A stretch of 64,000 nt of DNA from Rhodocyclaceae bacterium (GTDB lineage: Bacteria; Pseudomonadota; Gammaproteobacteria; Burkholderiales; Rhodocyclaceae). Location: positions 438 to 64,437 of the forward strand of contig JBGARB010000004.1 in the NCBI GenBank assembly GCA_044230495.1. Direction: 5' to 3'. Within the stretch, counting starts at the first letter, position 1; every line of letters starts with the position of its first letter. A model generated the notes under the pieces. It was not told where the DNA came from. It saw only the letters and a list, made by a program, of their open reading frames with translations, and did not search any database. This document shows, one piece after another, positions 13,067 to 47,628 of the stretch. The position numbers and the translations under genes were made by a program.

Positions 13067-13217
13067 GCCCGACCCGACGGAGCACAGGCCGTCGCGAGCG
13101 CAGCCCAGATGGCCGCGCCCGGCGCACAGCAAGGAGACATGCCTGGCTGGCAGGCGACGAAGCGAGCACCGCGCAAGGCCATATCGGCAAGCGCAGCAGG
13201 CATGGGGACGTCGGCTG

Positions 13218-16101: not shown

Positions 16102-16111
16102 GGAGACCGCC

Positions 16112-29911: not shown

Positions 29912-29924
29912 GATCGCTCCTGGA

Positions 29925-34619: not shown

Positions 34620-35245
34620 TCCGCGCCATCGTCGCCGACGACCACACCCTGTTCCGCATCGGCCTCAAGCAATTGCTGGAGTCGTTCGGCGACATCGCCG
34701 TCGTCGCCGAGGCCGCGAACGCCGACGAAGCCCTGCACCGCCTGGCGACCGTTAACTGCACGCTGCTGGTGTGCGACCTGACGATGCCCGGCGTCACCGG
34801 CACCAGCCTGATCGAGGCCGTGCGCGCCGCGCACGCCGGGCTGCCGATCCTCGTGTTGTCGATGCACGATGAACCGGCCACCGTACGTCGTGCACTGGCT
34901 GCCGGAGCGACCGGCTACCTCACCAAGGAATCCTCACCGGATGTCCTCCATGCGGCCGTGCAGGCGGTGGCGCGCGGTGAACGTTACCTGCCGCCGACGC
35001 TGGCACAGGCTCTGGCATTCGAGTCGGCGGCGGCCACCCGCGCCGCACACGAGGCCCTGAGCCAGCGCGAGTTGCAGGTTTTCCGGCTGATTGCCGCCGG
35101 GTCGTCGCTGGCGGCCATCGCCGAGCAACTGGGACTGTCGCCGAAGACCATCACCACGCACAAGACGCACCTGATGGAGAAGCTCGGCGTCGCGAACAAC
35201 GCCGACCTGATCCGCTACGCCGTCGAACACCGGCTGTTTGAATGA
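34616..35245 (+). CDS. NarL/FixJ-family response regulator (REC + LuxR HTH)
   Basis: MIRAIVADDHTLFRIGL...DLTMPG... REC domain and LSQRELQVFRLIAAGSSLAAIAEQLGLSPKTITTHKTHLMEKLG HTH. The start overlaps the kinase stop. Confidence 0.9.
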   Translation: MIRAIVADDHTLFRIGLKQLLESFGDIAVVAEAANADEALHRLATVNCTLLVCDLTMPGVTGTSLIEAVRAAHAGLPILVLSMHDEPATVRRALAAGATGYLTKESSPDVLHAAVQAVARGERYLPPTLAQALAFESAAATRAAHEALSQRELQVFRLIAAGSSLAAIAEQLGLSPKTITTHKTHLMEKLGVANNADLIRYAVEHRLFE

Positions 35246-35299
35246 CGGCATTGCATCGATTGATCTGGGGGCGCCAAGCCGGCGGTTAGACTGACGAGC

Positions 35300-35324
35300 C
35301 GCCGTTCCGCCGCCACTGTCGTTT
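35300..35324 (-). repeat. 25-bp dispersed repeat, degenerate copy 7 (AAACGACAGTGGCGGCGGAACGGCG, 22/25 match)
   Basis: Lies immediately upstream of, and overlapping, the TTG start of the SulP-Usp gene. Confidence 0.6.
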
Positions 35325-37899
35325 GACCGCCGTTCCCGACCGCGCCACGTTGTTGCGTCTGCTGCCCTTCCTGCGCTGGTGGCCGCTGGTCACGCGTGCA
35401 ACGCTGAAGGAAGACCTGCTCGCCGGCCTCACCGGCGCGCTGATCGTGCTGCCGCAAGGCGTCGCCTTTGCCACCATCGCCGGCCTGCCGCCGCAGTACG
35501 GCCTCTACGCGGCGATGATGCCGGCAATCGTCGCCGCGCTGTTCGGCTCCTCGTGGCATCTGGTGTCCGGCCCCACCACCGCGATCTCCATTGCGCTCTA
35601 CGCCGCGCTGCATTCGCTCGCCGAACCGGGCACGCCCGAATACGTCGGCCTGGCGCTGACGCTGACGCTGCAGGTGGGCATCTTCCAGATGGCGCTTGGC
35701 CTGGCGCGCATGGGTGCCGTGGTGAATTTCATTTCGCATACCGTGGTCATCGGCTTCACCACCGGCGCGGCGGTGCTCATCGCCGCCAGCCAGGTGCGCA
35801 GTTTCTTCGGCATCGACATTCCGCGCGGCGTCCCGTTCTATGAAATCCTCCACCAGTTCGCGTTGCAGATCGACCGCATCAACCCGTGGGTGACGGCGGT
35901 CGGCGTGGCGACGCTGGCGGCCGGCCTGTTCGTCAAGCGACGCTGGAAGAAGTTTCCCTACATGATCGCGGCGATGGTCGGCGGCGGCCTCGTCGCCTTC
36001 GCCTTCAACACCGAGTTCGGCCAGACCGAAACCGGCATCCGGACGGTCGGCGCGCTGCCTGCCGGGTTGCCGCCGTTCTCTTGGCCGGACTTCTCCTTCG
36101 CGGCGCTGAAAAAGACCTTCGGCCCCGCGCTGGTCATCACCATGCTGGCGCTTACCGAAGCGGTGTCGATCGCGCGCGCCATCGCCGTACGCTCGGAACA
36201 GCGCATCGACGGCAACCAGGAGTTCATCGGCCAGGGCCTGTCGAACCTCGTCGGCGCGTTCTTTTCGGGCTATGCGTCTTCGGGTTCGTTCAACCGCTCC
36301 GGCGTGAACTACGAAGCCGGCGCGCGCACGCCGCTGGCCACGGTCTTCGCATCGCTGTTCCTGCTCGTCATCCTGCTCGTCGTCGCACCGCTCGCCGCCT
36401 ATCTGCCCAACGCCGCGATGGCCGGCATCCTGTTCCTCGTCGCCTGGGGACTGATCGACTTCCACCACATCACCTCGATCTGGCGGACCAGCCGCACCGA
36501 ATCCGCCGTGCTGTGGGTCACCGTCATCGGCACGTTGATGAACCTCGAGGCCGGCATCGTCGCCGGCGTCCTGCTCTCGCTGCTGCTCTACCTGCATCGC
36601 ACCTCGCGGCCGACCATCGACACGCTGGTGCCGGCGGTCGATGCCAGCGGCTATCATTTCATCGATGCGCGCGGCCACAAGGAGTGCCCGCAACTGCGCA
36701 TCGTGCGCATCAACGGTTCGGCCTATTTCGGCGCGGTCGACCACATCCAGAGCGCGCTGCAGCAGATCGATCTGGACAACCCGCGGCAGAAATCCGTACT
36801 CGTCGTTTCGCTGGGCATGAACTTCATCGACGTCGCCGGCGCCGAGATGTTCGCGCAGGAGGCACGCCGTCGCCGACGGCTTGGCGGCGGACTGTACTTC
36901 TATCGCATGAAGCCGGCAGCGTACGAAATCCTCCGCCAGGGCGACTACGTACACGACATCGGCGAAGGCGCGTTTTTCCCGGTGAAGACCAATCCCACCG
37001 ACGCGCTGTACTGGACGCTCGACCCGGACATTTGCCGCACTTGCAAGGCGCGCATCTTCGCCAACTGCCACAGCGGCCGCCTGCCCGACGGCGACCGCCG
37101 CCTGCGCCTGATGCTCGCCGCCGACGGCAGCGACATGGCCGCGGCGCCCCGCGCCCTGGCACTCGACCTTGCCCATGCCATGGGCGTCACGCTCGACGTG
37201 GTGGGCGTCAGCGCCAACGACGCCGAGGCCTTCGAGGTCGACACGCGCCTGGCCGACATCGCCCGCGAAGGCGTGCGCCGCGATGTCGCCTGCGAGCCGG
37301 TGCATCGACGCGGCAACGACCTCGCGCGCGAAATCCACGACGCCGCGGCGCGCGCCCATACGCAATTGCTCGTCATCGGCCGCCGGCTGATCCCGCTCAA
37401 GGGCAACGAGTTCGGCCCCTTCGCGCAGCGCCTCGTCGCCACCGCGCCGTGCCATACGTTGATCGTCGCGCCGGAAAGCCGGTTGTGGTCGCGGCGCATT
37501 CTGGTCGCCTTCGACGGCAGCGACGCCGCGCTGCAGGCCTGCGACTTCGCCGCGCAGCTTGCCAAGCCGGCTCATTTGCCGATCACGCTGCTGTCGGTAG
37601 GCGATGCCGCCAGCGCCGCCTTTGCACCGATCAGCGATGCCGCGCAACTGGCGCTGGCGCGGCTGCGCGCCGACGGCGTCGAGGGCGCGCACGAGGTGCG
37701 CAGCGGCCGCGTTGCCGATGCGCTGATCACTTGCGCCGCCGAGGGCGGCGCCGACCTCATCGTGCTCTATCGCCATACGCGCGGCGCGCTCGCGCGCACC
37801 TTGCTGGGCAGCGTCAGCCATGAAGTGATTCTGCGCGCCGGCGTCCCTGTGCTGCTCGTTGGTGCCGCCGAGCAGCGCGCGGCGGCGCTCAACGGCTGA
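35323..37899 (+). CDS. SulP-family anion transporter fused to STAS and two C-terminal universal-stress-protein (Usp) domains
   Basis: An 858-aa ORF with a TTG start. It has a SulP TM core (…GLPPQYGLYAAMMPAIV…), a STAS domain (…VVSLGMNFIDVAGAEMF…), then two Usp-like halves (…LMLAADGSDMA… and …ILVAFDGSDAAL…GSVSHEVILRAGVPVLLV). Confidence 0.85.
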   Translation: MTAVPDRATLLRLLPFLRWWPLVTRATLKEDLLAGLTGALIVLPQGVAFATIAGLPPQYGLYAAMMPAIVAALFGSSWHLVSGPTTAISIALYAALHSLAEPGTPEYVGLALTLTLQVGIFQMALGLARMGAVVNFISHTVVIGFTTGAAVLIAASQVRSFFGIDIPRGVPFYEILHQFALQIDRINPWVTAVGVATLAAGLFVKRRWKKFPYMIAAMVGGGLVAFAFNTEFGQTETGIRTVGALPAGLPPFSWPDFSFAALKKTFGPALVITMLALTEAVSIARAIAVRSEQRIDGNQEFIGQGLSNLVGAFFSGYASSGSFNRSGVNYEAGARTPLATVFASLFLLVILLVVAPLAAYLPNAAMAGILFLVAWGLIDFHHITSIWRTSRTESAVLWVTVIGTLMNLEAGIVAGVLLSLLLYLHRTSRPTIDTLVPAVDASGYHFIDARGHKECPQLRIVRINGSAYFGAVDHIQSALQQIDLDNPRQKSVLVVSLGMNFIDVAGAEMFAQEARRRRRLGGGLYFYRMKPAAYEILRQGDYVHDIGEGAFFPVKTNPTDALYWTLDPDICRTCKARIFANCHSGRLPDGDRRLRLMLAADGSDMAAAPRALALDLAHAMGVTLDVVGVSANDAEAFEVDTRLADIAREGVRRDVACEPVHRRGNDLAREIHDAAARAHTQLLVIGRRLIPLKGNEFGPFAQRLVATAPCHTLIVAPESRLWSRRILVAFDGSDAALQACDFAAQLAKPAHLPITLLSVGDAASAAFAPISDAAQLALARLRADGVEGAHEVRSGRVADALITCAAEGGADLIVLYRHTRGALARTLLGSVSHEVILRAGVPVLLVGAAEQRAAALNG

Positions 37900-38236: not shown

Positions 38237-38758
38237 TCAGCGCCTGGCCACGGCGGCGAGAATCCCGCGCATGATCGCCAGCGGCGTCGGCGGGCAGCCC
38301 GGCACGCGCACATCGACGGGGATCACGTCGGCGACCGCACCGCAGGTCGCGTAATTGGCACCGAACAGCGCGCCGGCTTCGCCGCAGCCGGCGCCGCAAT
38401 CACCCACGGCGACGACGAGCTTCGGATCGGGCGTGCACTCGTAGGCGATCTTCAGCGCGTTCTCCATGTTCTTCGTCACCGGCCCGGTGACCAGCAGCAT
38501 GTCGGCGTGGCGCGGGCTGGCCACGAACTTGATGCCGCGTCCTTCGAGGTTGTAGTACGGATTGTTCATCGCGTGCACTTCCAGCTCGCAGCCGTTGCAC
38601 GAGCCGGCATCGACCTCGCGGATGGTCAGCGCGCGGCCGAGGATCGCCAGCACCTCGTCGCCCAGCCGCTCGACCTCGCGTGCCGGCGCATCCGTCGTGA
38701 GGTCGTGGCGCTCGGTGACGATGCCGGTCGAGAAGATGCGACGAATGAGCGGGATCAC
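38237..38758 (-). CDS. NuoB/HycG/HyfI-like small subunit (4Fe-4S) of a group-4-hydrogenase-related complex
   Basis: Trimmed to a GTG at 38758 overlapping the large-subunit stop. GSCNGCELE, VGDCG and PGCPPTP Cys motifs are retained. Confidence 0.85.
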   Translation of the reverse strand: MIPLIRRIFSTGIVTERHDLTTDAPAREVERLGDEVLAILGRALTIREVDAGSCNGCELEVHAMNNPYYNLEGRGIKFVASPRHADMLLVTGPVTKNMENALKIAYECTPDPKLVVAVGDCGAGCGEAGALFGANYATCGAVADVIPVDVRVPGCPPTPLAIMRGILAAVARR

Positions 38759-40314
38759 AGGTCGACTCCGCTGTAGGAGAGATTGAACGACTTGTTGATG
38801 AGCGGAAAATCGGGAACGATGTCCTTGAGCACGGCATGTTCGAGCGCCGGCCAGTTCTGCCACGACGGGTCGTGCGGATGCGCACGGGCGAGGCGGCCGT
38901 CGCCGTCGAGACGCACGCCGACCAGCGTCTCGCCGCGCCAACCCTCGACGACGCCCAGACCTTCGACGTGCGGCTGCGGCACCACGGTGACGCGCGACTC
39001 GCCCGAGGGCAGGCCGACGCACAGCTCGCGCAGCAGACGCAGCGATTCGGCGAGCTCCGAAAAACGTACCGCGGCGCGCGCCGCAACGTCGCCGCGTTCG
39101 TCGCTCGCCGGCCGCACGCCGAGCGCGGCGTAGGGCGGCGGCGGCGTGTAGCCGAGCCGATGGGCGCGGCCATCGAGCAGCAGGCCGCAGGCGCGCACGG
39201 CAAAGCCGGTGATCGACAGCTCGCGCGCCAGTTCCGCGGAGATCGTGCCGGTGGTGACGAAGCGGTCCTGCAGGCCGGCATGGTCGTCGTAGATCGCGCG
39301 CAAGATGGCTACTTCGCGGGCCATCGTTTCGCCCTGTGCAACGAGTTGCGCCAGCGCGCCGGCGGGCGGGTCGACAGCGACGCCGCCGGGCACGATGCGA
39401 TCCATCATGAAGCGGTGGCCGAACACCTCGGCGTTCAGCCGCAGCCAATCTTCCTTGAGGCGCAGGAACTGCGTCAGGCCAAAGGCCAGCGCGGCATCGT
39501 TGCCCAGCGCGCCGAGATCGCCCAGATGATTGGCCACGCGCTCGCGCTCGAGCATGACCGCGCGCAAACCCAGCGCGCGCGCCGGCACGTCGGTGGCGCA
39601 GGCCGTCTCGACGGCGCTTGCATACGCCCACGCGAAGGCGCAGGTGGAATCACCGGAGACGCGGCCGATCAGCTTGGCGCCGGTGACCAGGTCGGCACCG
39701 GCCAGCCGCCGCTCGGTACCCTTGTGCTGATAGCCCAGGCGCTGTTCGAGCCGCAGCACGCGCTCGCCGACGACCGAAAAGCGGAAGTGTCCCGGCTCGA
39801 TGATGCCGGCATGGATCGGGCCAACGGGGATCTCGTGCGCACCCTCGCCGCCGACCGTGACGAACGGGTAGTCGGTCGGCGCGTTGGCGTGCGTCGGTGC
39901 CGGGCCGGCATCGGCGCGCAGCGGGAACCAGCCTGCGGGCCAGCCGCCATGGCGCAGCCACGGACGCTGGTCGGGGCCGTCGTGACGCAGGCCGACCAGA
40001 TCGAAGGTGGCGCGTTGCAAGCGGTTGGCGGCCGAAAAGATGCCGGACAGATCGGGGTACGCGGGGTCGTCGGCGGGCAGCGGCAGCATCACCCACGCGT
40101 GCCCTTCCACCAGCCCGAAAACGACATGCAGGCGGAACCCGGTGCCATTCGCGGTGGCGTCCTCTCCCCACAATGCGGCAAGCCGTCCGTCGGCGGCGCG
40201 CACCGACCGCGCGAAGTCCAGCAGCGCGGCGCCATTTTCGGCCGTGCCGCGCCAGACCGGCGCACCGGCGCCCGGCTGCGGTGCGAAAACGATGGACGTG
40301 TCGATGGCGAACAT
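38755..40314 (-). CDS. NuoC-NuoD/HycE/HyfG-like large subunit lacking the NiFe-binding cysteines
   Basis: A 519-aa ORF. The core GPIHAGIIEPGHFRF…LGYQHKGTE is typical of the family. The N-terminal RxCGxCxxxH position reads GRVSGDSTCAFAW. The C-terminus reads FNLSYSGVDL-stop where DPCxxCxxR is expected. Confidence 0.85.
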   Translation of the reverse strand: MFAIDTSIVFAPQPGAGAPVWRGTAENGAALLDFARSVRAADGRLAALWGEDATANGTGFRLHVVFGLVEGHAWVMLPLPADDPAYPDLSGIFSAANRLQRATFDLVGLRHDGPDQRPWLRHGGWPAGWFPLRADAGPAPTHANAPTDYPFVTVGGEGAHEIPVGPIHAGIIEPGHFRFSVVGERVLRLEQRLGYQHKGTERRLAGADLVTGAKLIGRVSGDSTCAFAWAYASAVETACATDVPARALGLRAVMLERERVANHLGDLGALGNDAALAFGLTQFLRLKEDWLRLNAEVFGHRFMMDRIVPGGVAVDPPAGALAQLVAQGETMAREVAILRAIYDDHAGLQDRFVTTGTISAELARELSITGFAVRACGLLLDGRAHRLGYTPPPPYAALGVRPASDERGDVAARAAVRFSELAESLRLLRELCVGLPSGESRVTVVPQPHVEGLGVVEGWRGETLVGVRLDGDGRLARAHPHDPSWQNWPALEHAVLKDIVPDFPLINKSFNLSYSGVDL

Positions 40315-40320
40315 GATCTG

Positions 40321-41775
40321 CTAGCCCAGCATGCGCGCGGCTTCGTGGAACCACTGCCGCAGGTAGGGGGGAATCCACAGCCCGAACATCAGCACCAGCG
40401 CCAGATGCACGAAGACCGGCAGGATCGCCGGCGCGTGCGGCAACCGCCGCGCGCTGGTCTCGCCGAAGACCATCGGCTGCACCTTGCCGAAGATCGCCGC
40501 GAAGGCGACGCCCAGGCCGATGAGCAGGATCGGCATGGTCCACGGATAGTGGCGCATGGCGTGCGTCAGGATCATGAATTCGCTGGCGAAGACGCCGAAC
40601 GGCGGCATGCCGAGGATCGCCAGCGTGCCGATCATCAGGCCCCAGCCGATCAGCGGATTGATGTGCATGAGACCGCGGATGTCATCCATGATCTGCGTGC
40701 CGGTCTTCTGCGTGGCATGGCCGACGGCGAAGAAGATCGCCGACTTGGTCAGCGAATGCATGGTCATGTGCAGCAGACCGGCGAAATTCGCCACGGCGCC
40801 GCCCATGCCGGAAGCGAAGGTGATGAGCCCCATGTGTTCGATGGACGAATACGCGAACATGCGCTTGACGTCCTTCTGGCGCAGCAGGAAAAAGGCGGCA
40901 ACGAGCAGCGTGAACAGCCCGAAGCCCATCATCAGCGTGCCAGCGAAATCGGCCGGCAGCGCGCCGTCGGCGATCACCTTGCAACGCAGGATGGCGTAGA
41001 GCGCGACGTTGAGCAGCAGCCCGGAGAGTACGGCCGAAACGGGCGTCGGACCTTCGGCGTGGGCGTCGGGAAGCCAGTTGTGCAACGGCGCGAGGCCGAC
41101 CTTGGTGCCGTAGCCGACGAGCAGGAAGATGAAGGCCAGCGCCATGATCGCCGGCTCGAGCTGCGTATTGACGTTGACTAGGTAAGTCCACAGCAACGCG
41201 TTGCCCGTCTGGCCGAGCACGCGCTCGGCGGCGAAGTAGAGCAGGATGGTGCCGAACAGCGCCTGCGCAATGCCGACGCCGCAAAGGATGAAATATTTCC
41301 AGGCCGCTTCGAGGCTGGCCGGCGTGCGGTAGAGCGAGACCAGCAGCACGGTCGTCAACGTCGCCGCCTCCATCGCCACCCACAGGATGCCGAGGTTGTT
41401 GGTGGTCAGCGCCAGCAGCATGGTGAACATGAAGAGCTGGTACATGCTCTTGTAAAGGCGCAGGCGCGGGCGCGTCAGGCGCCCGTGCTCGCGCTCGTTC
41501 TTCATGTACGGGCCGGAGAAGATGCTGGTGGTCAGACCGACGAAGGCCGTCAGCGCGACGAAAAAGACGTTCAGCGAATCGATGAAGAACTGCTCGCCGA
41601 AGGCGAAGCGCGGTCCGTTGGCGACCACCTCGGCGGTGAGGCCGGCGGCGGCGAGGAAGGTGCCGAGGCTGGCGAGCGCGTTGAGGTTCGGCGCCCATGC
41701 GCGTTCGCCGGCGACGGTGAGCACCGCACCGCTGGCAAGCGGAATCAGCAGCATGAGGGCGAAGAAATCCGGCAT
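40321..41775 (-). CDS. NuoM/NuoN-type antiporter-like subunit (HyfF/HycQ-like)
   Basis: Trimmed to MPDFFALMLLIPLASG (ATG 41775, overlapping the upstream stop as TGATG). It is polytopic, with the WLPDAHAEGPTPVSA motif. Confidence 0.85.
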   Translation of the reverse strand: MPDFFALMLLIPLASGAVLTVAGERAWAPNLNALASLGTFLAAAGLTAEVVANGPRFAFGEQFFIDSLNVFFVALTAFVGLTTSIFSGPYMKNEREHGRLTRPRLRLYKSMYQLFMFTMLLALTTNNLGILWVAMEAATLTTVLLVSLYRTPASLEAAWKYFILCGVGIAQALFGTILLYFAAERVLGQTGNALLWTYLVNVNTQLEPAIMALAFIFLLVGYGTKVGLAPLHNWLPDAHAEGPTPVSAVLSGLLLNVALYAILRCKVIADGALPADFAGTLMMGFGLFTLLVAAFFLLRQKDVKRMFAYSSIEHMGLITFASGMGGAVANFAGLLHMTMHSLTKSAIFFAVGHATQKTGTQIMDDIRGLMHINPLIGWGLMIGTLAILGMPPFGVFASEFMILTHAMRHYPWTMPILLIGLGVAFAAIFGKVQPMVFGETSARRLPHAPAILPVFVHLALVLMFGLWIPPYLRQWFHEAARMLG

Positions 41776-42443
41776 CACTCGTCTTTCAGGCGTTCCATGT
41801 GGTGGATGTCGAGGCTGTCGAACTGGTCGCGGATCTGGAAGAAGAACACGCCGAGAATGATGACGCCGACCAGCACGTCGAGCGCGATGCCCAGCTCGAC
41901 CACCATCGGCATGCCGTAGGTTGCGCTGGTCGCGGCAAGGAAGAGCCCGTTTTCCATGGCCAGAAAGCCGACCACCTGGGTGATCGCCTTGCGCCGCGTG
42001 ATCATCATCAGGAAGGCCAGCATCACGGTCGCCAGCGCGATGCCCAGTGTGCCGCGCGAGACGGTCGACGAGAACTCGGCGATCGGCAGCGCGACGTTGA
42101 AGGCAATGATGACGAGCCCGAGGCCGACCAGCAGCGTGGTGGTGATGTTGATCATCGGCTCGACTTCGCGCTTGATCTTCAGTTGCGTCATCAGCCGGTG
42201 CAGGATCCACGGCAGCAGCGCGGCCTTGAGCACCAGCGTCAGCGCCGCCGAGTAGTAAAGGTGCGTCTGCCCGGTGGTCACGGCCACCACCAGCGTGGAC
42301 AGGAACAGCACCAGTCCCTGCACGGCGAACAGGTCGATCAGGCCGCGCACGCTGCGCTGCGCGAGCATGGCGAAGGCGAGCAGCAGGATCACTGCGGCGA
42401 ACAGGTTGATGAGCTGGGCCGACAGCGGCAGCGCGGTGGTCAT
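41775..42443 (-). CDS. HyfE/HycP-like small membrane subunit (NuoK-related)
   Basis: Trimmed to MTTALPLSAQLINLFAAVILL (ATG 42443, ATGA overlap); 222 aa; multi-TM. Confidence 0.8.
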   Translation of the reverse strand: MTTALPLSAQLINLFAAVILLLAFAMLAQRSVRGLIDLFAVQGLVLFLSTLVVAVTTGQTHLYYSAALTLVLKAALLPWILHRLMTQLKIKREVEPMINITTTLLVGLGLVIIAFNVALPIAEFSSTVSRGTLGIALATVMLAFLMMITRRKAITQVVGFLAMENGLFLAATSATYGMPMVVELGIALDVLVGVIILGVFFFQIRDQFDSLDIHHMERLKDE

Positions 42444-43393
42444 GCCCCCCTCTCCAGCAGCAGGCGCACCAGCAGTCCGAGCACGGCGATGAGGAAGGCG
42501 GTGCCGAGGAACTCTGGGGCGCGGAAGATGCGCAGCTTGGCGTTGATGGTCTCGATGGCGGCCAGGAAGGCACCGCCAAGCGCAAGCTTGACGAGAAGCA
42601 GCGGGATCGCGGCCACCAGTGCGAGGAAATTGTCGCGCTCGGCAATGCCCCAAGGGAAAAACAGCGCCAGGCCCAGGCACGAGTACGCGTAGAGCTTGAG
42701 GCTCGCTGCCCATTCGAGCAGGGCCAGGTGCCGGCCCGAATATTCGAGGATCAGCGCCTCGTGGATCATCGTCAGTTCGAGGTGCGTGGCCGGGTTGTCC
42801 ACCGGCACGCGCGCATTCTCGGCGAAGGATACGAAGGTGAAGGCGATGCCGGCGAAGGCCAGGCTGGGATGGATCACCAGCTCGCGGTGGGCAAGCGTCT
42901 CGACGATGGTGGCCACCGAAGTCGATTGGGCAATCATCGCCAGCGTGAAGATGACCATCAGCAGCGCCGGCTCGGCGAGGAAGCCGATGAGCATTTCGCG
43001 CCGCGCGCCAAGGCTGCCGAAGGCCGTGCCGACATCCATCGCGGCCAGCGAAATGAACACCCGGGCGAGGCCGAAGACGCCGACCAGCGCAATGACGTCG
43101 GCGGCCGGCGCGAACGGCAGGTCGGTCGACAGCGTGGGGATGATCGCGCAAGCCAGCAGCATGCAGCCGAAAACGATGAAGGGCGCGAAGCGGAACAGCG
43201 TCGAGGCGCCATGCGCCAGCACCACGTCCTTGTGGAACAGCTTGTGCAGCATGAAATACGGCTGCCACAAGGGTGGCGCCGTGCGGTTCTGCATCCACGC
43301 GCGACATTGGTTGACCCAGCCGGTGAGCAGCGGCGCCAGCGCGGCAGCGAGCACAATCGCGAAGAGTTGTCCCAGGAAACCGGCAATGCTCAT
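42440..43393 (-). CDS. NuoH/HycD/HyfC-like membrane subunit
   Basis: Trimmed to MSIAGFLGQLFAIVLAAAL (ATG 43393, ATGA overlap with the upstream stop); 317 aa; polytopic. Confidence 0.85.
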   Translation of the reverse strand: MSIAGFLGQLFAIVLAAALAPLLTGWVNQCRAWMQNRTAPPLWQPYFMLHKLFHKDVVLAHGASTLFRFAPFIVFGCMLLACAIIPTLSTDLPFAPAADVIALVGVFGLARVFISLAAMDVGTAFGSLGARREMLIGFLAEPALLMVIFTLAMIAQSTSVATIVETLAHRELVIHPSLAFAGIAFTFVSFAENARVPVDNPATHLELTMIHEALILEYSGRHLALLEWAASLKLYAYSCLGLALFFPWGIAERDNFLALVAAIPLLLVKLALGGAFLAAIETINAKLRIFRAPEFLGTAFLIAVLGLLVRLLLERGA

Positions 43394-45450
43394 GGCCGCC
43401 CCAGCAACAACAGCAGCAACAGCGTGACGAAGCTGTACAGCAGGTAGATCGCGATGCGCCCGCCTTGCAGCGTCGCGATGCGATCGGACAGCCGGTGCGC
43501 CAGGCCGGCCACCGGCAGGTAGAGCCAGTGCCAGAAGTGGTCTTCGATCTTGACGCGGTAGACCGGCTCGGCATCGCGCACCGACGGAAATTGCCGCTCC
43601 ATGCGGAACATCGGCTCGAAGATGCGCCGGATCGGCTGGCTGAAGCCCTCGGCGCTGTCCTGCGCGCGAGGTCCCTCGAAGTAGTAGCCACAATCCCAAG
43701 GCTGCGAGCGGCGGATGCGGCCGTGGTAGAGCTTTTTCACCAGCCAGCGGCCGAGCAGCAGCGTGGCGGCGATGACGGCGAGGAACAGCACCGGCTGATA
43801 GCTGGCGCGCGCAGCCGAAATCGGCGCCAGCAACCACCAGTCGTGCTCGGCCAAACGTGCCGTCAGCCCGGCGCCGAGCAACTGCGTCGTTGCCGCATCG
43901 ATGCGCAGCATGACGGTCACCGGCAGCAGCCCGAGCACCAGCGTCAGCCCCACCAGCCACAGAAGGCCCGCGCGTTCCCACGGGCCGGCATCGTGGGCAT
44001 CGTTCAGGCTCGGCTCGCGCATCTGGCCGAGGAAGACGATGCCGTGGAACTTGACCATGGCGAAGCCGGCCATCGCCGCCACCAGCACGACCAGCGCCGC
44101 GGCGACGGGCACGATCATGTTCAGCCACGGATGCGGCAGGCTGGGCGAGAACAGGAAGCCCTGCAGCAGCAGCCACTCGGAAACGAAGCCGGACAGCGGC
44201 GGCAGCCCGGCACCGGCGATGACGCCGACCAGCGCCAGCCAGGCGACCCACGGCATGCGGTGGATCAGCCCGCCGAGTTTGCCCAGATTGCGTTCCTTCG
44301 TCGCATGCAGGACCGAGCCGGTGCACAGGAACAGCAGGCTCTTGAAACCGGCGTGGGCCAGGCAGTGATACAACGCGGCGGTCAACGCCAGCGCCGCCAG
44401 CGCCTCCATGTCATAGGCATGAAACGTCAGCGCCAGGCCGAGCGCGACGGCGATAAGGCCGATGTTCTCGATCGACGAATAGGCCAGCAGGCGCTTCATG
44501 TCCGATTGCACCATGCTGTAGAGCACGCCGAACGCGGCGGTGGCGAGCCCGGTGCCGAGCATGACCACGCCCCACCACCACTGCGGCTCGCCGAGCAGGT
44601 CGAAACTCACGCGCAACAGGCCGTAGATCGCGGTCTTGAGCATCACGCCGCTCATCATCGCCGACACCGGCGACGGCGCTGCCGGATGCGCCTCGGGCAG
44701 CCACACGTGGAGCGGCAGCAGGCCGGCCTTGGCGCCGAAGCCGACGAGCGCCAGCAGGAAGCCCGCCGACGCCCACGACGGGCTCAGCTCCTGCGCGCGC
44801 ATCGCCGCGAACGTATAGTCGCCGGCGCCGCCAGTGAGCACGCCGAACGACAGCAGGATCGCCAGCGCCCCCAGGTGCGCGATCAGCAGGTAGATGAAGC
44901 CGGCCGCACGGATCGCCGCGTGCTTGTGGTCGGTGACGACGAGGAAGAAAGACGACAGCGCCATGCACTCCCATGCCACCATGAAGGCGTAGGCGTCGTC
45001 GGCCAGCATGACCAGCGCCATGCTGGCGACGAAGACGTGATACTCGAGGCACAGCAGGCCCGGCGCGGTCCCGGCACCTTCGCGGAAGTAGCCCGCCGCG
45101 TAGATCGAGATGCCGACGGTGGCGAAACCCAGCAACATCACGAACATCGCCGCGAGGCTGTCCAGGCGCAAATGGAATGGCAGGTCGGGCAGACCGATCG
45201 GCAACAGCATCGCGTCGGCCGGAGCGCCGAGCGAGGCGAGGCCCACGAAGCCGACGACGAAGCCGACCAGTGCGCCGAGCGGAAACAACGTCTGCGCCAC
45301 GAAACGTGTGTTGCGCGGCAGCGCCAGCCCGGCCAGCCCGATCAGCAGCCAGCCGACGACGCACAGCAGCAGCGTCTGCAACGGCGCGAGTTCGGGCAGC
45401 GTCATGGCGATCATGGCGTCAGCGCCGCCTGCTTGGGGTGCGGCAAACAT
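43390..45450 (-). CDS. NuoL-type antiporter-like subunit (HyfB-like)
   Basis: A 686-aa polytopic ORF with WLPEAHPAAPSPVSA. The start could be ATG 45450, 45414 or 45405. It begins 24 nt after the upstream SulP gene. Confidence 0.85.
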   Translation of the reverse strand: MFAAPQAGGADAMIAMTLPELAPLQTLLLCVVGWLLIGLAGLALPRNTRFVAQTLFPLGALVGFVVGFVGLASLGAPADAMLLPIGLPDLPFHLRLDSLAAMFVMLLGFATVGISIYAAGYFREGAGTAPGLLCLEYHVFVASMALVMLADDAYAFMVAWECMALSSFFLVVTDHKHAAIRAAGFIYLLIAHLGALAILLSFGVLTGGAGDYTFAAMRAQELSPSWASAGFLLALVGFGAKAGLLPLHVWLPEAHPAAPSPVSAMMSGVMLKTAIYGLLRVSFDLLGEPQWWWGVVMLGTGLATAAFGVLYSMVQSDMKRLLAYSSIENIGLIAVALGLALTFHAYDMEALAALALTAALYHCLAHAGFKSLLFLCTGSVLHATKERNLGKLGGLIHRMPWVAWLALVGVIAGAGLPPLSGFVSEWLLLQGFLFSPSLPHPWLNMIVPVAAALVVLVAAMAGFAMVKFHGIVFLGQMREPSLNDAHDAGPWERAGLLWLVGLTLVLGLLPVTVMLRIDAATTQLLGAGLTARLAEHDWWLLAPISAARASYQPVLFLAVIAATLLLGRWLVKKLYHGRIRRSQPWDCGYYFEGPRAQDSAEGFSQPIRRIFEPMFRMERQFPSVRDAEPVYRVKIEDHFWHWLYLPVAGLAHRLSDRIATLQGGRIAIYLLYSFVTLLLLLLLGRP

Positions 45451-45474: not shown

Positions 45475-47628
45475 TCAGCGGGCCTCGTTGCCGCCCCAGC
45501 GCTGGGGCATCAGCGGACACGACAGCGGTGCAAGCGCCGTCCCGCCACCACTGTAGTTTGCGTAGATCGCCTCCAGCGCCTGATCGTAGGTGGAGAAGAT
45601 CCTGTCCTCGCCCAGCCAGGCCAGCAGGCCCGTGGCGCGCATGACGTCCAGCACCTGCTTCTTGAGGCCCGAAAACACCACATCGACGCCGCCCTCGCGC
45701 AAGCGGCGGATGACATGGTGCATGACTTCCTCACCCGAGGCATCCAGCTCGTTGATGCCGTCGCCGACGATCAGCAGCGTGCGCGCCTTCGGGTTGCCGG
45801 CCACCGCCTCGAGGATCGCATCCTCGAAGTACGACACGTTGGCGAAATACAGCCGACCGTCGAAGCGCACGGCGGTCACGATCTCCGAGGTCGGCAGGTT
45901 GTGCACCTTGACGTCGCGCAAGGTGCCGTCGGCATGCCGGCCGAGAATCGCCACGCGCGGGCGCATGGTGCGGAAAAGGTACAGCGCGATGGCCACCGCG
46001 GCGCCGACGAGGATGCCGGTATCGAGGTGCGGCGCAAAGGCCAGCGTGGCGGCAAAGGTGATGATCGCCGCGATGCCGTCGTGTCTGCTGGCCTGCCACG
46101 CGTGACGGATGGCACCGAAATTCACCAGCCCGACAACGGCCATGATGATGACCGCCGCCAGCACCGCCTGCGGCAGGTGGTAGAGCAGCGGCGTCAGGAA
46201 CAGCAGCGTGAGCAGCACGAACAAGCCGGTGAATACCGCCGAGAGTCCGCTCGCCGCGCCGGCGTTGAGATTCACCGCCGAGCGCGAGAACGACCCCGAT
46301 ACCGGAAAACCCTGTGTCAGCGCACTGGCCAGATTGGCCAGCCCCTGCCCCAGCAACTCCTGGTTCGGATCGATGCGTTGACGGGTCTTGGCGGCCATTG
46401 CCTTGGCGATCGAGATCGCTTCCATGAACGCCACCAGCGAGATCACCACCGCCGCCGACAGCAGCGCGCGCAGGCTGTCCCAACTGATCGCAGGCAGGGC
46501 CACGGTGGGCAAGCCTTCGGGAACCTTGCCGACGACTTCGCCACCGCCCACCAGCCGAACCTCGCCCCCCGGTGCGCCCGGCGCGCGCGCAATGCGCCAG
46601 CGATGACCGTCCGTCCCTTGTGCGGGTGCCGCCGCGGCATCGACGAACCGGTCCGCAGCGCCCGCCGCACCGGGAAGGCGCGCCAACGACATGCTGCGCA
46701 GCGCCCGGTTGCGCACGCGATTCTCGGCCTCGCGATCTTTCAGTTGCAGCCGCAGCACGTCGATTTCGTAGTTGAGCGTCAGCGCCGCATGCGCGCCACC
46801 GGTACCCGCCTTGCGTGCCGCGGCCAGCGCCGCGCCCCCGCTCGCGATGCGCGCATTCAACTCCTCGATCTTCTGCTGCGCCGAGGCGTATTCGGCGAGC
46901 AGCATCACCGCCTCGGGCGCCTCGATCTGCGCCAGCGATACCGCCGCATTGCGCTCGAAGCCGACGGACCAACTGACCACGGTCGCGATGGCCACGGCCA
47001 CCAGCACGCCGGGCGCGCGCGGCGCAAGCCGCCGCAAGACCGCCATGACGGCGATCGCGCCGACGCCCATCGCCAGCGTCGGCCAGTGCGTGTCGCCGAT
47101 CTGCAGCAGCACGTTCCAGACATCGGCGACAAAGTGCTCGGTGCGCGGCATCGGCACGCCGATGAGCTTGTTCACCTGCGACAGCCCGATGATGATCGCC
47201 GCCGCATTGGTGAAGCCGACGATCACCGGATGCGACAGGAAATTGACCACCACGCCCAGTCGGAAGACGCCGAGCACGAGCTGGAAGACGCCGACCAGCA
47301 GCGCCAGCCCGATCGCCAGCGCGACGTAGGCCTCGGTGCCGCCGGCGGCCAGCGGCGCCAGCGCCGACGCCGTGAGCAGCGAGGCCACGGCGACCGGCCC
47401 GGTGGCGAGCTGGCTGGAGGAGCCCCACAACGCGCCGATCACCGCCGGCAGGAAGCCGGCATACAGCCCGTAGTACGGCGGCACGCCCGCCAGTTGGGCG
47501 TAGGCCATCGATTGCGGCACGAGCACCAGCGCCACCGTCAGGCCGGCGACGAAGTCCGCCCGCATCGAGCCGGCATTCGGCGCCGGCCAGCGCAAAAAGG
47601 GCAACCATGCGGAGAGTGCGGATTTCAT
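45475..47628 (-). CDS. SulP-family anion transporter with a ~140-aa insertion inside the TM core, plus STAS
   Basis: A 717-aa ORF. SulP core motifs (…GVPPYYGLYAGFLPAVIGAL…) are present. A coiled/low-complexity insert lies between …VGFERN and GKVPEGLP…. A STAS domain is present. The C-terminal tail reads through a copy of the 25-bp repeat (…[17 protein letters not shown]…). Confidence 0.85.
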   Translation of the reverse strand: MKSALSAWLPFLRWPAPNAGSMRADFVAGLTVALVLVPQSMAYAQLAGVPPYYGLYAGFLPAVIGALWGSSSQLATGPVAVASLLTASALAPLAAGGTEAYVALAIGLALLVGVFQLVLGVFRLGVVVNFLSHPVIVGFTNAAAIIIGLSQVNKLIGVPMPRTEHFVADVWNVLLQIGDTHWPTLAMGVGAIAVMAVLRRLAPRAPGVLVAVAIATVVSWSVGFERNAAVSLAQIEAPEAVMLLAEYASAQQKIEELNARIASGGAALAAARKAGTGGAHAALTLNYEIDVLRLQLKDREAENRVRNRALRSMSLARLPGAAGAADRFVDAAAAPAQGTDGHRWRIARAPGAPGGEVRLVGGGEVVGKVPEGLPTVALPAISWDSLRALLSAAVVISLVAFMEAISIAKAMAAKTRQRIDPNQELLGQGLANLASALTQGFPVSGSFSRSAVNLNAGAASGLSAVFTGLFVLLTLLFLTPLLYHLPQAVLAAVIIMAVVGLVNFGAIRHAWQASRHDGIAAIITFAATLAFAPHLDTGILVGAAVAIALYLFRTMRPRVAILGRHADGTLRDVKVHNLPTSEIVTAVRFDGRLYFANVSYFEDAILEAVAGNPKARTLLIVGDGINELDASGEEVMHHVIRRLREGGVDVVFSGLKKQVLDVMRATGLLAWLGEDRIFSTYDQALEAIYANYSGGGTALAPLSCPLMPQRWGGNEAR
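45535..45559 (-). repeat. 25-bp dispersed repeat, copy 10 (AAACTACAGTGGTGGCGGGACGGCG)
   Basis: Lies inside the 3' tail of SulP gene 45475..47628 in the sense orientation, translated NYSGGGTA. Confidence 0.9.

What the first reader, a model, noticed from the sequence alone, without database searches (positions are those of the whole stretch)
38237..45450. Hyf/Hyc-like six-subunit membrane complex whose catalytic subunit has lost all NiFe cysteine ligands (Ehr-type)
**Operon structure.** Six tightly coupled genes (ATGA, GTGA or TGATG overlaps at four of the five junctions; the fifth is a 6-nt gap) encode:
- A NuoL-like (HyfB) subunit.
- A NuoH-like (HyfC/HycD) subunit.
- A HyfE-like subunit.
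- A NuoM/N-like (HyfF) subunit.
- A NuoCD-like large subunit.
- A NuoB-like small subunit.

**Loss of the active site.**
- At the N-terminal RxCGxCxxxH position the large subunit reads GRVSGDSTCAFAW.
- It ends FNLSYSGVDL-stop where DPCxxCxxR is expected.
- A NiFe site therefore cannot form.
- The small subunit keeps its 4Fe-4S cysteines (GSCNGCE, GDCG, GCPP).

**Missing partners in the window.** No HycF/NuoI-type ferredoxin subunit, hyp/hycI maturation gene or formate dehydrogenase is present.

**Interpretation.** This matches the energy-converting hydrogenase-related (Ehr) class proposed from comparisons of complex I with group 4 hydrogenases. Its substrate and physiological role are still unknown.
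Basis: partly seen in the sequence, partly recalled or inferred. Interest (0 to 1): 0.7.

Follow-up and report, generated by a model that had tools for sequence, protein, structure and literature searches.

The report
Hydrogenase-like membrane complex lacking metal site
This operon encodes an anion transporter followed by a six-subunit relative of membrane-bound hydrogenases and respiratory complex I that has lost its hydrogen-splitting nickel-iron site; the class (Ehr, "hyfBCEFGI") is already known and widespread, its job is still unknown, and here the neighbouring genes hint at bicarbonate/CO2 handling.

Summary
On the minus strand, 38237-45450 holds six translationally coupled genes: HyfB-like, NuoH/HyfC-like, HyfE-like, HyfF-like, a fused NuoC-NuoD large subunit and a NuoB-like small subunit. 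Aligned to E. coli HycE, all four NiFe cysteines are replaced (RVCGIC becomes RVSGDS, DPCYSC becomes NLSYSG). The protein ends two residues after the second motif. The small subunit keeps its four [4Fe-4S] cysteines. The two complex I quinone ligands (Nqo4 His38, Tyr87) are also absent.

The Ehr interpretation holds, but the class is not new. The same hyfBCEFGI unit is described in Cupriavidus and Geobacter and is common in Proteobacteria. More than 60 of 84 full-length representative clusters share the conserved replacement pattern.

A second SulP-Usp gene lies convergent downstream. In related Rhodocyclaceae and Thiobacillus loci the operon recurs with SulP genes, a Cam-type gamma-carbonic anhydrase and RuBisCO cbbLSQO. 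This gives a testable but unproven link to inorganic-carbon handling. The link is absent in Burkholderia, Rhizobium and other taxa. Most SulP1-type genes also lack an adjacent Ehr operon.

The parts
45475..47628 (-). sulP1: SulP-family anion transporter with a C-terminal STAS domain (717 aa). It has a ~135-aa coiled-coil-like insert (residues ~225-365) splitting the permease domain. It is probably the first gene of the operon, since its stop lies 24 nt before the hyfB-like ATG.
   Evidence: Pfam Sulfate_transp 1e-103 and STAS 6e-14. NCBIfam sulP TIGR00815 scores 437 bits, above its cut-off. It is far below the cut-offs for BicA (131 vs 880) and DauA (207 vs 614). The same position is held in L166 and in 15 of 48 related genome loci. 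dN/dS 0.09.
43390..45450 (-). HyfB/NuoL-like antiporter-type subunit (686 aa; an alternative ATG lies at 45414).
   Evidence: NCBIfam NF005086 'hydrogenase 4 subunit B' scores 886 bits, above its 667 cut-off. The best solved relative is HycC 7z0s_C at 2e-57. The TM5 Glu (AWECMAL), TM7 Lys (GAKAG), TM8 Lys, TM11 Lys and TM12 Glu are all present in the alignments.
42440..43393 (-). HyfC/HycD/NuoH-like subunit (317 aa), ATGA overlap with hyfB.
   Evidence: Pfam NADHdh 1.5e-36 across the whole profile; junction shown.
41775..42443 (-). HyfE-like small membrane subunit (222 aa), ATGA overlap.
   Evidence: NCBIfam NF008556 'hydrogenase 4 membrane subunit' at 4e-27 and 95 bits, below its 136 cut-off. 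There is no Pfam hit.
40321..41775 (-). HyfF/NuoM-N-like antiporter-type subunit (484 aa), TGATG junction.
   Evidence: NCBIfam NF005045 'hydrogenase 4 subunit F' scores 847 bits, above its 543 cut-off. The TM5 Glu, TM7 Lys, TM11 Lys and TM12 Glu motifs are present. The TM8 position is Asn.
38755..40314 (-). Large subunit: a fused NuoC-like (residues ~31-136) and NuoD/HycE-like domain (519 aa). It has no NiFe ligands and no C-terminal extension.
   Evidence: Pfam Complex1_30kDa and Complex1_49kDa. HycE alignment. AlphaFold2 mean pLDDT 92.3, pTM 0.94. Foldseek best match is HycE 7z0s_E with TM 0.91 and rmsd 2.3 A, followed by E. coli NuoCD at TM ~0.85.
39634..39663 (-). Former L1 NiFe motif, RVSGDSTCAF (residues 218-227). 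It aligns with HycE RVCGICGFAH and with Nqo4 RMDYLHSFAH.
   Evidence: The family-wide replacement consensus is R[VI]SGD[ST].
38758..38787 (-). Former L2 NiFe motif at the very C-terminus, FNLSYSGVDL followed by stop (residues 510-519). It aligns with HycE LDPCYSCTD.
   Evidence: N507, S509, Y514 and D518 are invariant in the 60-sequence alignment A1.
39778..39828 (-). PVGPIHAGIIEPGHFRF (residues 163-179), the equivalent of the beta1-beta2 loop of NuoD. It is nearly invariant across Cys-less and Cys-containing relatives. Residues 167-172 are the only segment of the model with pLDDT below 50.
   Evidence: Invariant columns; pLDDT; alignment to Nqo4.
38237..38758 (-). NuoB/HycG/MbhJ-like small subunit (173 aa, GTG start overlapping the large-subunit stop). 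It keeps the four cysteines of the proximal [4Fe-4S] cluster, in GSCNGCE at 38585-38605, GDC at 38381-38404 and PGCPP at 38288-38302.
   Evidence: Pfam Oxidored_q6 6e-28. MbhJ 6.5e-37 and HycG 3e-32 with all four Cys aligned. Coordinates.
35323..37899 (+). sulP2: a second SulP-STAS transporter fused to a universal-stress-protein domain (858 aa). It is convergent with the operon end and counts as associated, not co-transcribed.
   Evidence: Pfam Sulfate_transp 9e-98, Usp 1e-28 and STAS. SulP2-type genes recur next to the operon in L005, L018, L024, L029, L033, L058, L060 and L070 in other orientations and in L166.

Best explanation
**What it is (shown).** This is a sulP-hyfBCEFGI operon. It encodes a SulP/STAS anion transporter followed by an Ehr-type complex, that is, a hydrogenase-4-like, complex-I-like membrane assembly of six subunits.
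- The large subunit has the HycE fold but no NiFe ligands, no protease-cleaved C-terminal extension and no complex I quinone ligands. It therefore cannot be a hydrogenase or a canonical quinone reductase.
- The small subunit keeps one [4Fe-4S] cluster.
- The two antiporter-like subunits keep the charged residues used for ion translocation in complex I, Mrp and MBH.
- All genes are under strong purifying selection.

**How it most likely works (inferred).**
- The HyfB/HyfF/HyfE/HyfC membrane arm moves H+ or Na+ across the membrane.
- The HyfG-HyfI cap contacts HyfC through the invariant beta1-beta2-type loop. It controls that movement instead of making H2. Its single cluster acts as a redox input or sensor.
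- In this lineage the ion movement serves anion transport, most probably bicarbonate, by the neighbouring SulP proteins. It could do so by recycling the coupling ion. Alternatively, where a gamma-carbonic anhydrase is encoded beside hyfB, it could remove the proton of CO2 hydration, as DAB and cyanobacterial NDH-1MS do.

**My probabilities**
- Identity as a non-hydrogenase Ehr complex: about 0.95.
- Co-transcription with sulP1: about 0.7.
- A role in inorganic-carbon or anion handling: about 0.3.
For: **Identity**
- Domain content is given.
- The Cys replacements against HycE are shown.
- Nqo4 His38 aligns with Ile and Tyr87 with Gly.
- The four cluster cysteines are kept.
- The ion-path residues of HyfB and HyfF are present.
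- The model has pLDDT 92.3 and matches HycE at TM 0.91.
- The window protein clusters with Cys-less representatives that share the conserved S-[STEN]-S-G pattern.
- dN/dS is 0.03-0.17.

**Known class**
- The hyfBCEFGI unit of Cupriavidus is described in PMC2864759.
- Ehr complexes are described in PMC7894505, PMC6349859 and PMC10284858.

**SulP link**
- The gap between sulP1 and hyfB is 24 nt.
- The layout is identical in L166.
- Of 48 related genome loci with enough upstream sequence, 15 have a SulP gene directly upstream on the same strand and 24 have one within 10 kb.
- The link occurs in several different arrangements and in two separate clades of the large-subunit tree.

**Carbon link, in relatives only**
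- A Cam/CcmM-class gamma-carbonic anhydrase with its three zinc histidines lies directly upstream of hyfB in L012, L058, L060 and L070.
- A CsoSCA_cat-like protein occurs in five loci.
- Form I RuBisCO cbbLSQO lies convergent with the operon in Thiobacillus and Sulfuricella loci.
- SulP1-type genes without Ehr also sit near cbbO, gamma-carbonic anhydrase and PF00361 genes.
- SulP transporters of autotrophic Pseudomonadota have been shown to take up inorganic carbon and are said to need sodium (PMC12628692).
Against: **Against the carbon link in this window**
- No carbonic anhydrase, RuBisCO or carboxysome gene is in this window.
- sulP1 is far below the BicA and DauA equivalog cut-offs, so its substrate is unknown.

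**Against a general SulP-Ehr coupling**
- The link is clade-restricted. 24 of 48 betaproteobacterial loci have no SulP.
- The Burkholderia, Paraburkholderia, Variovorax, Rhizobium and Methylocalor loci also have none. Their recurrent neighbours are spermidine-synthase-like, Usp and branched-chain ketoacid dehydrogenase genes.
- Only 10 of 49 SulP1-type metagenome loci with enough downstream sequence carry the Ehr genes. SulP1 is therefore not an obligate partner.
- The clades are related, so the locus counts are not independent events.

**Points that favour a redox or stress role**
- The retained [4Fe-4S] cluster and the conserved Ser/Asp pocket argue for some redox or ligand chemistry that this model does not explain.
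- Published expression data tie relatives to formate in Geobacter (PMC7894505) and to acid stress in Methylocystis (bioRxiv 10.1101/2025.08.29.672306), not to carbon limitation.

**Other limits**
- No promoter or terminator signal resolves the transcription unit.
Confidence: 0.6

Rival explanations
1. A redox-driven ion pump with a partner encoded elsewhere. A soluble donor reduces the single [4Fe-4S] cluster. The donor could be ferredoxin, or a formate dehydrogenase as in the proposed FDH-Ehr complexes. An unknown acceptor is reduced in the Ser/Asp pocket, and this drives H+/Na+ export. On this view the SulP genes are unrelated neighbours.
For: - The cluster ligands are retained.
- The pocket motifs R[VI]SGD[ST] and FNLSY[SA]GxDL are conserved over sequences only 35-55% identical.
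- The invariant coupling loop is kept.
- Ehr subunits are more abundant on formate in Geobacter (PMC7894505).
- Formate dehydrogenases are co-induced with the relative in Methylocystis (bioRxiv 10.1101/2025.08.29.672306).
- The FDH-Ehr proposal itself is in PMC6349859.
Against: - There is no HycF/NuoI or HycB-type ferredoxin subunit to wire a donor to the cluster.
- No formate dehydrogenase is in the window or in the related loci examined.
- The quinone ligands are absent.
- No acceptor is known for any Ehr.
Confidence: 0.22
2. A stress-induced (acid, hypoxia or stationary phase) ion-handling complex for pH or membrane-potential homeostasis. It has no specific tie to carbon. The SulP-Usp and other Usp neighbours reflect a shared stress regulon.
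For: - The probable Cys-less relative in Methylocystis is induced 16-20-fold at pH 5 without detectable H2 (bioRxiv 10.1101/2025.08.29.672306).
- The M. tuberculosis Ehr-like genes lie in the Rv0081-Rv0087 unit under a stress-linked regulator (PMC6728331).
- Usp genes or domains recur beside the operon: sulP2-Usp here, Paraburkholderia and Variovorax, and cluster 14 in Thiobacillus.
Against: - It does not explain the recurrent gamma-carbonic anhydrase, CsoSCA-like and RuBisCO neighbours.
- The expression data come from distant relatives.
- No mechanism follows from it.
Confidence: 0.15
3. A working [NiFe] hydrogenase whose cysteines were missed through misalignment, or a complex I variant with a normal quinone site.
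For: NCBIfam names two subunits 'hydrogenase 4' and public annotations call the large subunit 'NADH-quinone oxidoreductase subunit C'. One cysteine (GDSTCAF) lies near the first motif.
Against: - HMMER alignments to HycE, MbhL and Nqo4 all place Ser, Ser, Ser and Gly at the ligand positions, and Ile and Gly at the quinone-ligand positions.
- The nearby Cys is not conserved in relatives, which have Val there.
- The protein stops two residues after the second motif.
- The structural superposition on HycE covers 518 columns at 2.3 A, so there is no register shift.
- No hyp or hycI genes are in the window.
Confidence: 0.01
4. A decaying remnant of a hyf operon with no present function.
For: It lacks four or more genes of the E. 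coli hyf operon. PMC2864759 called the Cupriavidus copy an 'incomplete operon'.
Against: - All six reading frames are intact and translationally coupled.
- Third-position GC is 0.85-0.93.
- dN/dS is 0.03-0.17.
- Gene order is invariant in 80 loci.
- The replacement motifs are conserved across more than 60 of the 84 representative clusters aligned.
Confidence: 0.02

Closest known systems
Ehr complexes: the hyfBCEFGI clusters of Cupriavidus metallidurans CH34 (Rmet_4666-4671) and C. necator H16 (H16_A2196-2201), and EhrA-S of Geobacter sulfurreducens (GSU0739-0745)
   Same: - The six subunit types and, for Cupriavidus, the same gene order.
- A large subunit without NiFe cysteines.
- No HycF/HycB-type subunits and no dedicated maturation genes.
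- Function unknown.
- The Cupriavidus chromid copies are 54-56% identical to the window's large subunit (PMC2864759; PMC7894505).
   Different: - Here, and in Rhodocyclaceae and Thiobacillus relatives, a SulP/STAS transporter gene precedes hyfB and a SulP-Usp gene follows the operon.
- None of the chromid or plasmid loci read in full has this: Burkholderia, Paraburkholderia, Variovorax, Rhizobium, Methylocalor. The Cupriavidus records themselves could not be checked, because their entries carry little or no annotation at the hit.
- The Geobacter cluster has a different subunit set, with two EhrA copies.
E. coli formate hydrogenlyase (Hyc, PDB 7z0s) and hydrogenase-4 (Hyf), group 4a [NiFe] hydrogenases
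   Same: - These are the best solved relatives of four subunits: HycE 2e-46 and TM 0.91, HycC 2e-57, HycG 3e-32, and a HycD-type NuoH fold.
- They share the fused NuoC-NuoD architecture.
- They share the CxxC-type small-subunit cluster motif.
   Different: - All four NiFe cysteines are lost and there is no C-terminal extension for HycI.
- HycF, HycB, FdhF, HyfD, HyfA, HyfH and HyfJ are absent.
- HyfB here keeps the TM7 lysine that HycC lacks.
Group 4f ('Ehf') putative [NiFe] hydrogenases
   Same: They are the nearest Cys-containing sequences (32-40% identity). They have the same length and the same invariant loop PVGPIHAGxxEPGHFRF.
   Different: They keep RxCGxCxxSH and F[EN]LCYxCxDR. The window protein and its clade do not.
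Respiratory complex I (NuoB, CD, H, L, M, N) and Pyrococcus MBH/MBS
   Same: A common modular design: the NuoB-NuoD cap on NuoH plus antiporter-like subunits. The fold matches E. coli NuoCD at TM about 0.85.
   Different: - The quinone ligands His38 and Tyr87 are absent.
- NuoB has CxxC rather than the tandem CC motif.
- NuoA, E, F, G, I and J are absent.
- Scores to MBS are weak (46 bits).
Complex-I-derived inorganic-carbon pumps: DAB/DAC (DabAB) and cyanobacterial NDH-1MS (CupA/B). This is a 'works like' comparison only.
   Same: A NuoL-type proton-path subunit encoded beside inorganic-carbon genes. In Thiobacillus relatives a carbonic anhydrase gene directly precedes hyfB, next to RuBisCO. 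SulP inorganic-carbon transporters occur in the same kind of organisms (PMC12628692; PMC13144422).
   Different: - No DabA (PF10070) or CupA homologue is present.
- The anhydrase in relatives is gamma-class and is absent from this window.
- Ehr carries a NuoB/NuoD/NuoH module that DAB lacks.
- There is no experimental evidence.

Membership tests
Group 4 membrane-bound [NiFe] hydrogenase (Hyc/Hyf/Ech/Mbh) | N-terminal L1 motif RxCGxCxxxH supplying two NiFe cysteines | tested here: not met
   It reads RVSGDSTCAF. Both Cys positions are Ser in the alignments to HycE and MbhL.
Group 4 membrane-bound [NiFe] hydrogenase (Hyc/Hyf/Ech/Mbh) | C-terminal L2 motif DPCxxCxx[HR] supplying two NiFe cysteines, usually followed by a protease-cleaved extension | tested here: not met
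   It reads NLSYSGVDL followed by stop. The Cys positions are Ser and Gly, and there is no extension.
Group 4 membrane-bound [NiFe] hydrogenase (Hyc/Hyf/Ech/Mbh) | Small subunit with four cysteines for the proximal [4Fe-4S] cluster | tested here: met
   GSCNGC, GDC and GCPP align with the MbhJ and HycG ligands.
Group 4 membrane-bound [NiFe] hydrogenase (Hyc/Hyf/Ech/Mbh) | HycF/NuoI-type 2x[4Fe-4S] subunit and hyp/hycI maturation genes | tested here: not met
   None in the 64-kb window nor in the related loci surveyed. The rest of the genome cannot be searched.
Ehr (energy-converting / Ech-hydrogenase-related complex) | Homologues of the group 4 large and small subunits in which the NiFe-binding cysteines are missing | tested here: met
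   The fold matches HycE at TM 0.91.
Ehr (energy-converting / Ech-hydrogenase-related complex) | Encoded together with NuoH-like and Mrp/NuoL-type antiporter-like membrane subunits | tested here: met
   HyfC (NADHdh), HyfB and HyfF (Proton_antipo_M) and HyfE lie in one translationally coupled unit.
Ehr (energy-converting / Ech-hydrogenase-related complex) | Groups with other Cys-less sequences rather than with true hydrogenases or NuoD | tested here: met
   Shown by a neighbour-joining tree of 84 representatives. This is a distance tree without support values and without reference NuoD, EchE or MbxL sequences, so deep placement is not resolved.
Respiratory complex I (NDH-1) | Quinone head-group ligands of NuoD (T. 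thermophilus Nqo4 His38 and Tyr87) | tested here: not met
   His38 aligns with Ile172 and Tyr87 with Gly221.
Respiratory complex I (NDH-1) | Full core set, including NuoA, J, K, I and an electron-input module | tested here: not met
   Only six subunit types are in the operon. No NuoI-type motif occurs in the window.
DAB / NDH-1MS type vectorial CO2 hydration systems | A carbonic-anhydrase-like subunit (DabA PF10070 or CupA/B) paired with a NuoL-type subunit | tested here: not met
   None in the window. In some relatives a gamma-class anhydrase precedes hyfB. That is an analogy, not membership.
SulP bicarbonate transporters (BicA type) | Reaches the BicA equivalog score; demonstrated HCO3- transport | tested here: not met
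   sulP1 scores 131 bits and sulP2 191 bits against a cut-off of 880. Both pass only the general sulP subfamily model. Transport cannot be tested with these tools.
Mrp Na+/H+ antiporter | MrpA/D-like subunits together with MrpB, C, E, F and G | tested here: not met
   HyfB matches MrpA (1e-36) and MrpD (1e-28) of solved Mrp complexes. No MrpB, C, E, F or G genes are present.

The most novel reading that the evidence does not exclude
In Rhodocyclaceae and Thiobacillus lineages, the Ehr complex may be the energising module of an inorganic-carbon uptake system. That would make it a third independent recruitment of complex-I-type proton machinery for CO2/bicarbonate accumulation, after cyanobacterial NDH-1MS and DAB. 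It would work with dedicated SulP transporters and, in some species, a Cam-type gamma-carbonic anhydrase encoded directly upstream of hyfB and next to RuBisCO. This would give the first physiological function for any Ehr complex.
Probability: 0.2. Interest if true: 0.8.

Novelty: new member of a known kind. Interest (0 to 1): 0.42.

Why it matters
Ehr complexes are among the most widespread relatives of complex I with no assigned function. They occur in Cupriavidus, Burkholderia, rhizobia, methanotrophs, Geobacter, Nitrospira and mycobacteria. Databases routinely mislabel them as 'hydrogenase 4', 'formate hydrogenlyase' or 'NADH-quinone oxidoreductase subunit C'.

This window adds only another member. 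However, the comparative work yields two things:
- a clean negative: the site is neither a NiFe site nor a complex-I-type quinone site, yet the pocket is conserved and under selection;
- a concrete hypothesis that cheap experiments can test: the recurrent SulP, gamma-carbonic anhydrase and RuBisCO neighbourhood in chemolithoautotrophic Betaproteobacteria.

If the hypothesis holds, it would assign a function to the class and add a new type of carbon-concentrating machinery. If it fails, the class remains an open question and this locus is ordinary.

Tried and rejected
1. **Misalignment of the cysteines.** Rejected by three independent HMMER alignments and a 518-column structural superposition.
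2. **Complex I with a normal quinone site.** Rejected.
3. **Pseudogene relic.** Rejected by dN/dS and synteny.
4. **SulP1 as an obligate seventh subunit.** Rejected. Only 10 of 49 SulP1-type loci carry Ehr, and half of the related Ehr loci lack SulP.
5. **Promoter and terminator scan.** It gave nothing above shuffled expectation, so the transcription unit rests on spacing alone.
6. **Rfam search of the whole window.** No hits.
7. **Exact look-up of the window's large subunit in the assembly collection.** Not on record. The 96% relative was used instead.
8. **Literature searches.** Searches for H16_A2196-2201 and for Thiobacillus denitrificans locus tags guessed from memory found no functional data. 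No paper in the library links hyfB/hyfC with carbonic anhydrase or RuBisCO. This shows only that the link is absent from that library.
9. **Pocket inspection.** The AlphaFold model could not be used to inspect what fills the pocket, because coordinates are not returned. The large/small subunit pair could not be predicted either, because the tool takes a single chain.

Full report
**1. Observation**

The window has about 68% G+C. On the minus strand between 38237 and 45450 there are six open reading frames whose translations are unambiguous:
- a 686-aa HyfB/NuoL-like protein;
- a 317-aa NuoH/HyfC-like protein;
- a 222-aa HyfE-like protein;
- a 484-aa HyfF/NuoM-N-like protein;
- a 519-aa fused NuoC-NuoD large subunit;
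- a 173-aa NuoB-like small subunit.

Pfam and NCBIfam confirm each assignment. Two subunits exceed the curated cut-offs of the NCBIfam models 'hydrogenase 4 subunit B' and 'subunit F'. This explains how such operons are usually annotated. An independent gene call on a 96%-identical metagenome contig gives identical protein lengths.

**2. The active site**

phmmer against all solved structures puts E. coli HycE first (2e-46), then Pyrococcus MbhL, then Thermus Nqo4. The alignments show the following:
- HycE RVCGICGFAH faces RVSGDSTCAF, and DPCYSC faces NLSYSG. The four nickel-iron ligands are therefore Ser, Ser, Ser and Gly.
- The protein ends two residues later, so there is no extension for a HycI-type protease.
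- Against Nqo4, the quinone ligands His38 and Tyr87 face Ile and Gly.

An AlphaFold2 model built on 60 relatives is confident (pLDDT 92.3, pTM 0.94). It superposes on HycE with TM 0.91 and 2.3 A over 518 columns, ahead of E. coli NuoCD at about 0.85. A register error is therefore not credible.

The small subunit keeps all four cysteines of the proximal cluster in the CxxC (hydrogenase) arrangement. HyfB keeps the TM5 Glu, TM7 Lys, TM8 Lys, TM11 Lys and TM12 Glu of ion-translocating relatives. HyfF keeps all but the TM8 Lys.

**3. A living gene set, not a relic**

- Third-position G+C is 0.85-0.93 in all seven genes.
- dN/dS against the nearest relative is 0.03-0.17.
- Gene order hyfB-C-E-F-G-I is invariant in the 80 betaproteobacterial loci fetched.
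- An exhaustive HMMER search found 817 cluster representatives at E<=1e-30. Of the 84 full-length ones aligned, more than 60 lack the cysteines and share a conserved replacement pattern, R[VI]SGD[ST] and FNLSY[SA]GxDL. The 17 that keep three or four cysteines form one cluster in a distance tree.
- The loop PVGPIHAGIIEPGHFRF is the counterpart of the mobile beta1-beta2 loop of NuoD. It is nearly invariant in both groups and is the only low-confidence stretch of the model.

So the pocket was remodelled once or a few times and then kept.

**4. Is it known?**

Yes.
- The name Ehr covers exactly this: hydrogenase-like complexes lacking the NiFe ligands, with function undetermined (PMC6349859, PMC10284858, PMC7894505, PMC6728331).
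- The same six-gene hyfBCEFGI cluster was described in Cupriavidus metallidurans CH34 and C. necator H16 and judged unlikely to act in hydrogen metabolism (PMC2864759).
- A translated search of plasmids and chromids finds it in Cupriavidus, Burkholderia, Paraburkholderia, Variovorax, Rhizobium, Azospirillum and a Methylococcaceae bacterium. It is annotated there with the usual mixture of 'hydrogenase 4', 'formate hydrogenlyase' and 'NADH-quinone oxidoreductase subunit C'.

**5.

- A 717-aa SulP-family transporter with a STAS domain ends 24 nt upstream of hyfB on the same strand.
- A methyl-accepting chemotaxis protein gene ends 28 nt upstream of that.
- Convergent with the end of the operon is a second SulP-STAS gene fused to a universal stress protein domain. 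It is preceded by a PAS histidine kinase and a NarL-type regulator.
- The nearest relative has the identical layout.

**6. Does the SulP link mean anything?**

Of 48 related genome loci with at least 2.3 kb upstream, 15 have a SulP gene directly upstream on the same strand and 24 have one within 10 kb. By my own rough estimate, a few SulP genes in a genome of several megabases would give a few per cent by chance.

The arrangements differ:
- SulP1 then hyfB;
- SulP1, a second SulP, then hyfB;
- SulP2-type, a gamma-carbonic anhydrase, then hyfB;
- SulP2-type divergent or convergent with the operon.

The linked loci fall in two separate clades of the large-subunit tree, Rhodocyclaceae and Thiobacillus.

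In Thiobacillus and Sulfuricella loci the operon is convergent with form I RuBisCO cbbL-S-Q-O. It is accompanied by two further proteins:
- a Cam/CcmM-class gamma-carbonic anhydrase that keeps its three zinc histidines;
- a 353-aa protein matching the catalytic domain of the carboxysomal anhydrase CsoSCA.

SulP transporters of autotrophic Pseudomonadota have been shown to accumulate inorganic carbon (PMC12628692). No paper in the searchable library connects hyfB/hyfC with these genes.

**7. Limits of that link**

- The window itself contains no anhydrase or RuBisCO.
- sulP1 and sulP2 are far below the BicA and DauA equivalog thresholds.
- Half of the betaproteobacterial loci, and all the chromid or plasmid loci read in full, lack SulP. 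There the recurrent neighbours are spermidine-synthase-like proteins, Usp proteins and, in Burkholderia, the branched-chain ketoacid dehydrogenase.
- In the reciprocal test, 80 metagenome loci centred on SulP1-type genes (46-69% identity) carried the Ehr genes downstream in only 10 of 49 cases with enough sequence. The others sit mostly beside two-component regulators. A few lie near cbbO, gamma-carbonic anhydrase or NuoL-like genes.
- Published expression data for relatives point elsewhere: formate in Geobacter (PMC7894505) and acid stress in Methylocystis. In Methylocystis a 'group 4f hydrogenase' with the motif '...AARVS' rose 16-20-fold at pH 5 with no H2 detected (bioRxiv 10.1101/2025.08.29.672306).

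**8. Mechanism**

*Shown:*
- a HycE-fold cap without NiFe or quinone ligands;
- one retained [4Fe-4S] cluster;
- an intact NuoH-like subunit;
- two antiporter-like subunits with their ion-path residues;
- purifying selection;
- probable co-transcription with an anion transporter.

*Inferred:*
- The membrane arm translocates H+ or Na+.
- The cap gates or drives this through the conserved loop rather than by making H2.
- In this lineage the ion flux supports SulP-mediated anion uptake, probably bicarbonate. Where a gamma-carbonic anhydrase is present, it could instead pull the proton from CO2 hydration, by analogy with DAB and NDH-1MS.

I put about 0.95 on the identity, 0.7 on the seven-gene unit and 0.3 on the carbon or anion role.

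*Main rivals:*
- a redox pump with a partner encoded elsewhere (ferredoxin or formate dehydrogenase);
- a general acid or hypoxia stress function.

**9. Verdict**

The feature is a new member of a known but functionally unsolved class. Interest is moderate. The locus itself would not surprise a specialist. The SulP, carbonic anhydrase and RuBisCO neighbourhood does offer a direct experimental handle on a question that has stayed open since the class was named.

Noticed in passing
window 33396-37899 (+): A PAS histidine kinase (HisKA_3) and a NarL/GerE-type response regulator are followed by a SulP-STAS transporter fused to a C-terminal universal-stress-protein domain (858 aa). This is an unusual fusion. 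The same layout is present in the nearest relative, L166.
   Followed up: partly
window 47657-49294 (-): A methyl-accepting chemotaxis protein gene (4HB_MCP, HAMP, MCPsignal) stops only 28 nt before the sulP1 start, so it may be co-transcribed with the operon. It is conserved in L166 but not seen upstream of sulP1 in the other loci.
   Followed up: partly
window 45475-47628 (-), residues ~225-365 of SulP1: A ~135-aa coiled-coil-like insertion splits the Sulfate_transp domain into two Pfam stretches. All 80 SulP1-type metagenome matches span it, so it marks a distinct long SulP subfamily. That subfamily is often encoded beside a histidine kinase and a receiver-domain protein.
   Followed up: partly
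L076 12168-19110: This beta-proteobacterial MAG carries a second, divergent hyfBCEFGI-like operon (41-55% identity) immediately downstream of the first. It is a tandem duplication or a double acquisition.
   Followed up: no
L081 2686-3522; L164 2966-3799; L165 2774-3508 and 11711-12469; L060 12126-13343: Spermidine-synthase-like or 'fused MFS/spermidine synthase' genes recur immediately beside hyfBCEFGI in Burkholderia, Paraburkholderia, Variovorax and Thiobacillus. They often come with Usp and YoaK genes. This is a second conserved neighbourhood that the carbon hypothesis does not explain.
   Followed up: no
L003 12501-13562; L017 10048-11112; L023 14434-15477; L025 12346-13401; L054 2951-4012; L084 18454-19515; L089 14962-16005; L121 8224-8886: A ~353-aa protein matching only the catalytic domain of the carboxysomal carbonic anhydrase CsoSCA (26 bits, above the Pfam cut-off) sits next to Ehr and/or SulP1 genes, outside any carboxysome locus.
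   Followed up: partly
bioRxiv 10.1101/2025.08.29.672306 (Methylocystis): The 'group 4f [NiFe]-hydrogenase' reported there has the quoted motif '...AARVS' at what looks like the first ligand motif. It may therefore also be a Cys-less Ehr rather than a hydrogenase. This would fit the authors' failure to detect H2 despite 16-20-fold induction at pH 5.
   Followed up: no
L152 1226-3466: A distant group-4-like large and small subunit pair (33% and 42% identity) lies upstream of a SulP1-type gene in a metagenome contig. This may be another hydrogenase-like complex beside this transporter family.
   Followed up: no
window 7625-14453 (+): A DUF6866 protein, a xylose-isomerase-like TIM-barrel protein and the three glycolate oxidase genes (FAD-oxidase, FAD-binding, CCG/4Fe-4S) lie together, followed by pntAB transhydrogenase at 14581-17524. 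The glycolate oxidase set could serve phosphoglycolate salvage in an autotroph but is not specific to autotrophs.
   Followed up: no
window 25232-32978 (-): A 1652-aa PilY1-domain protein with PilW and FimT/GspH-like minor pilin genes lies in the stretch of lower G+C (62-65%).
   Followed up: no
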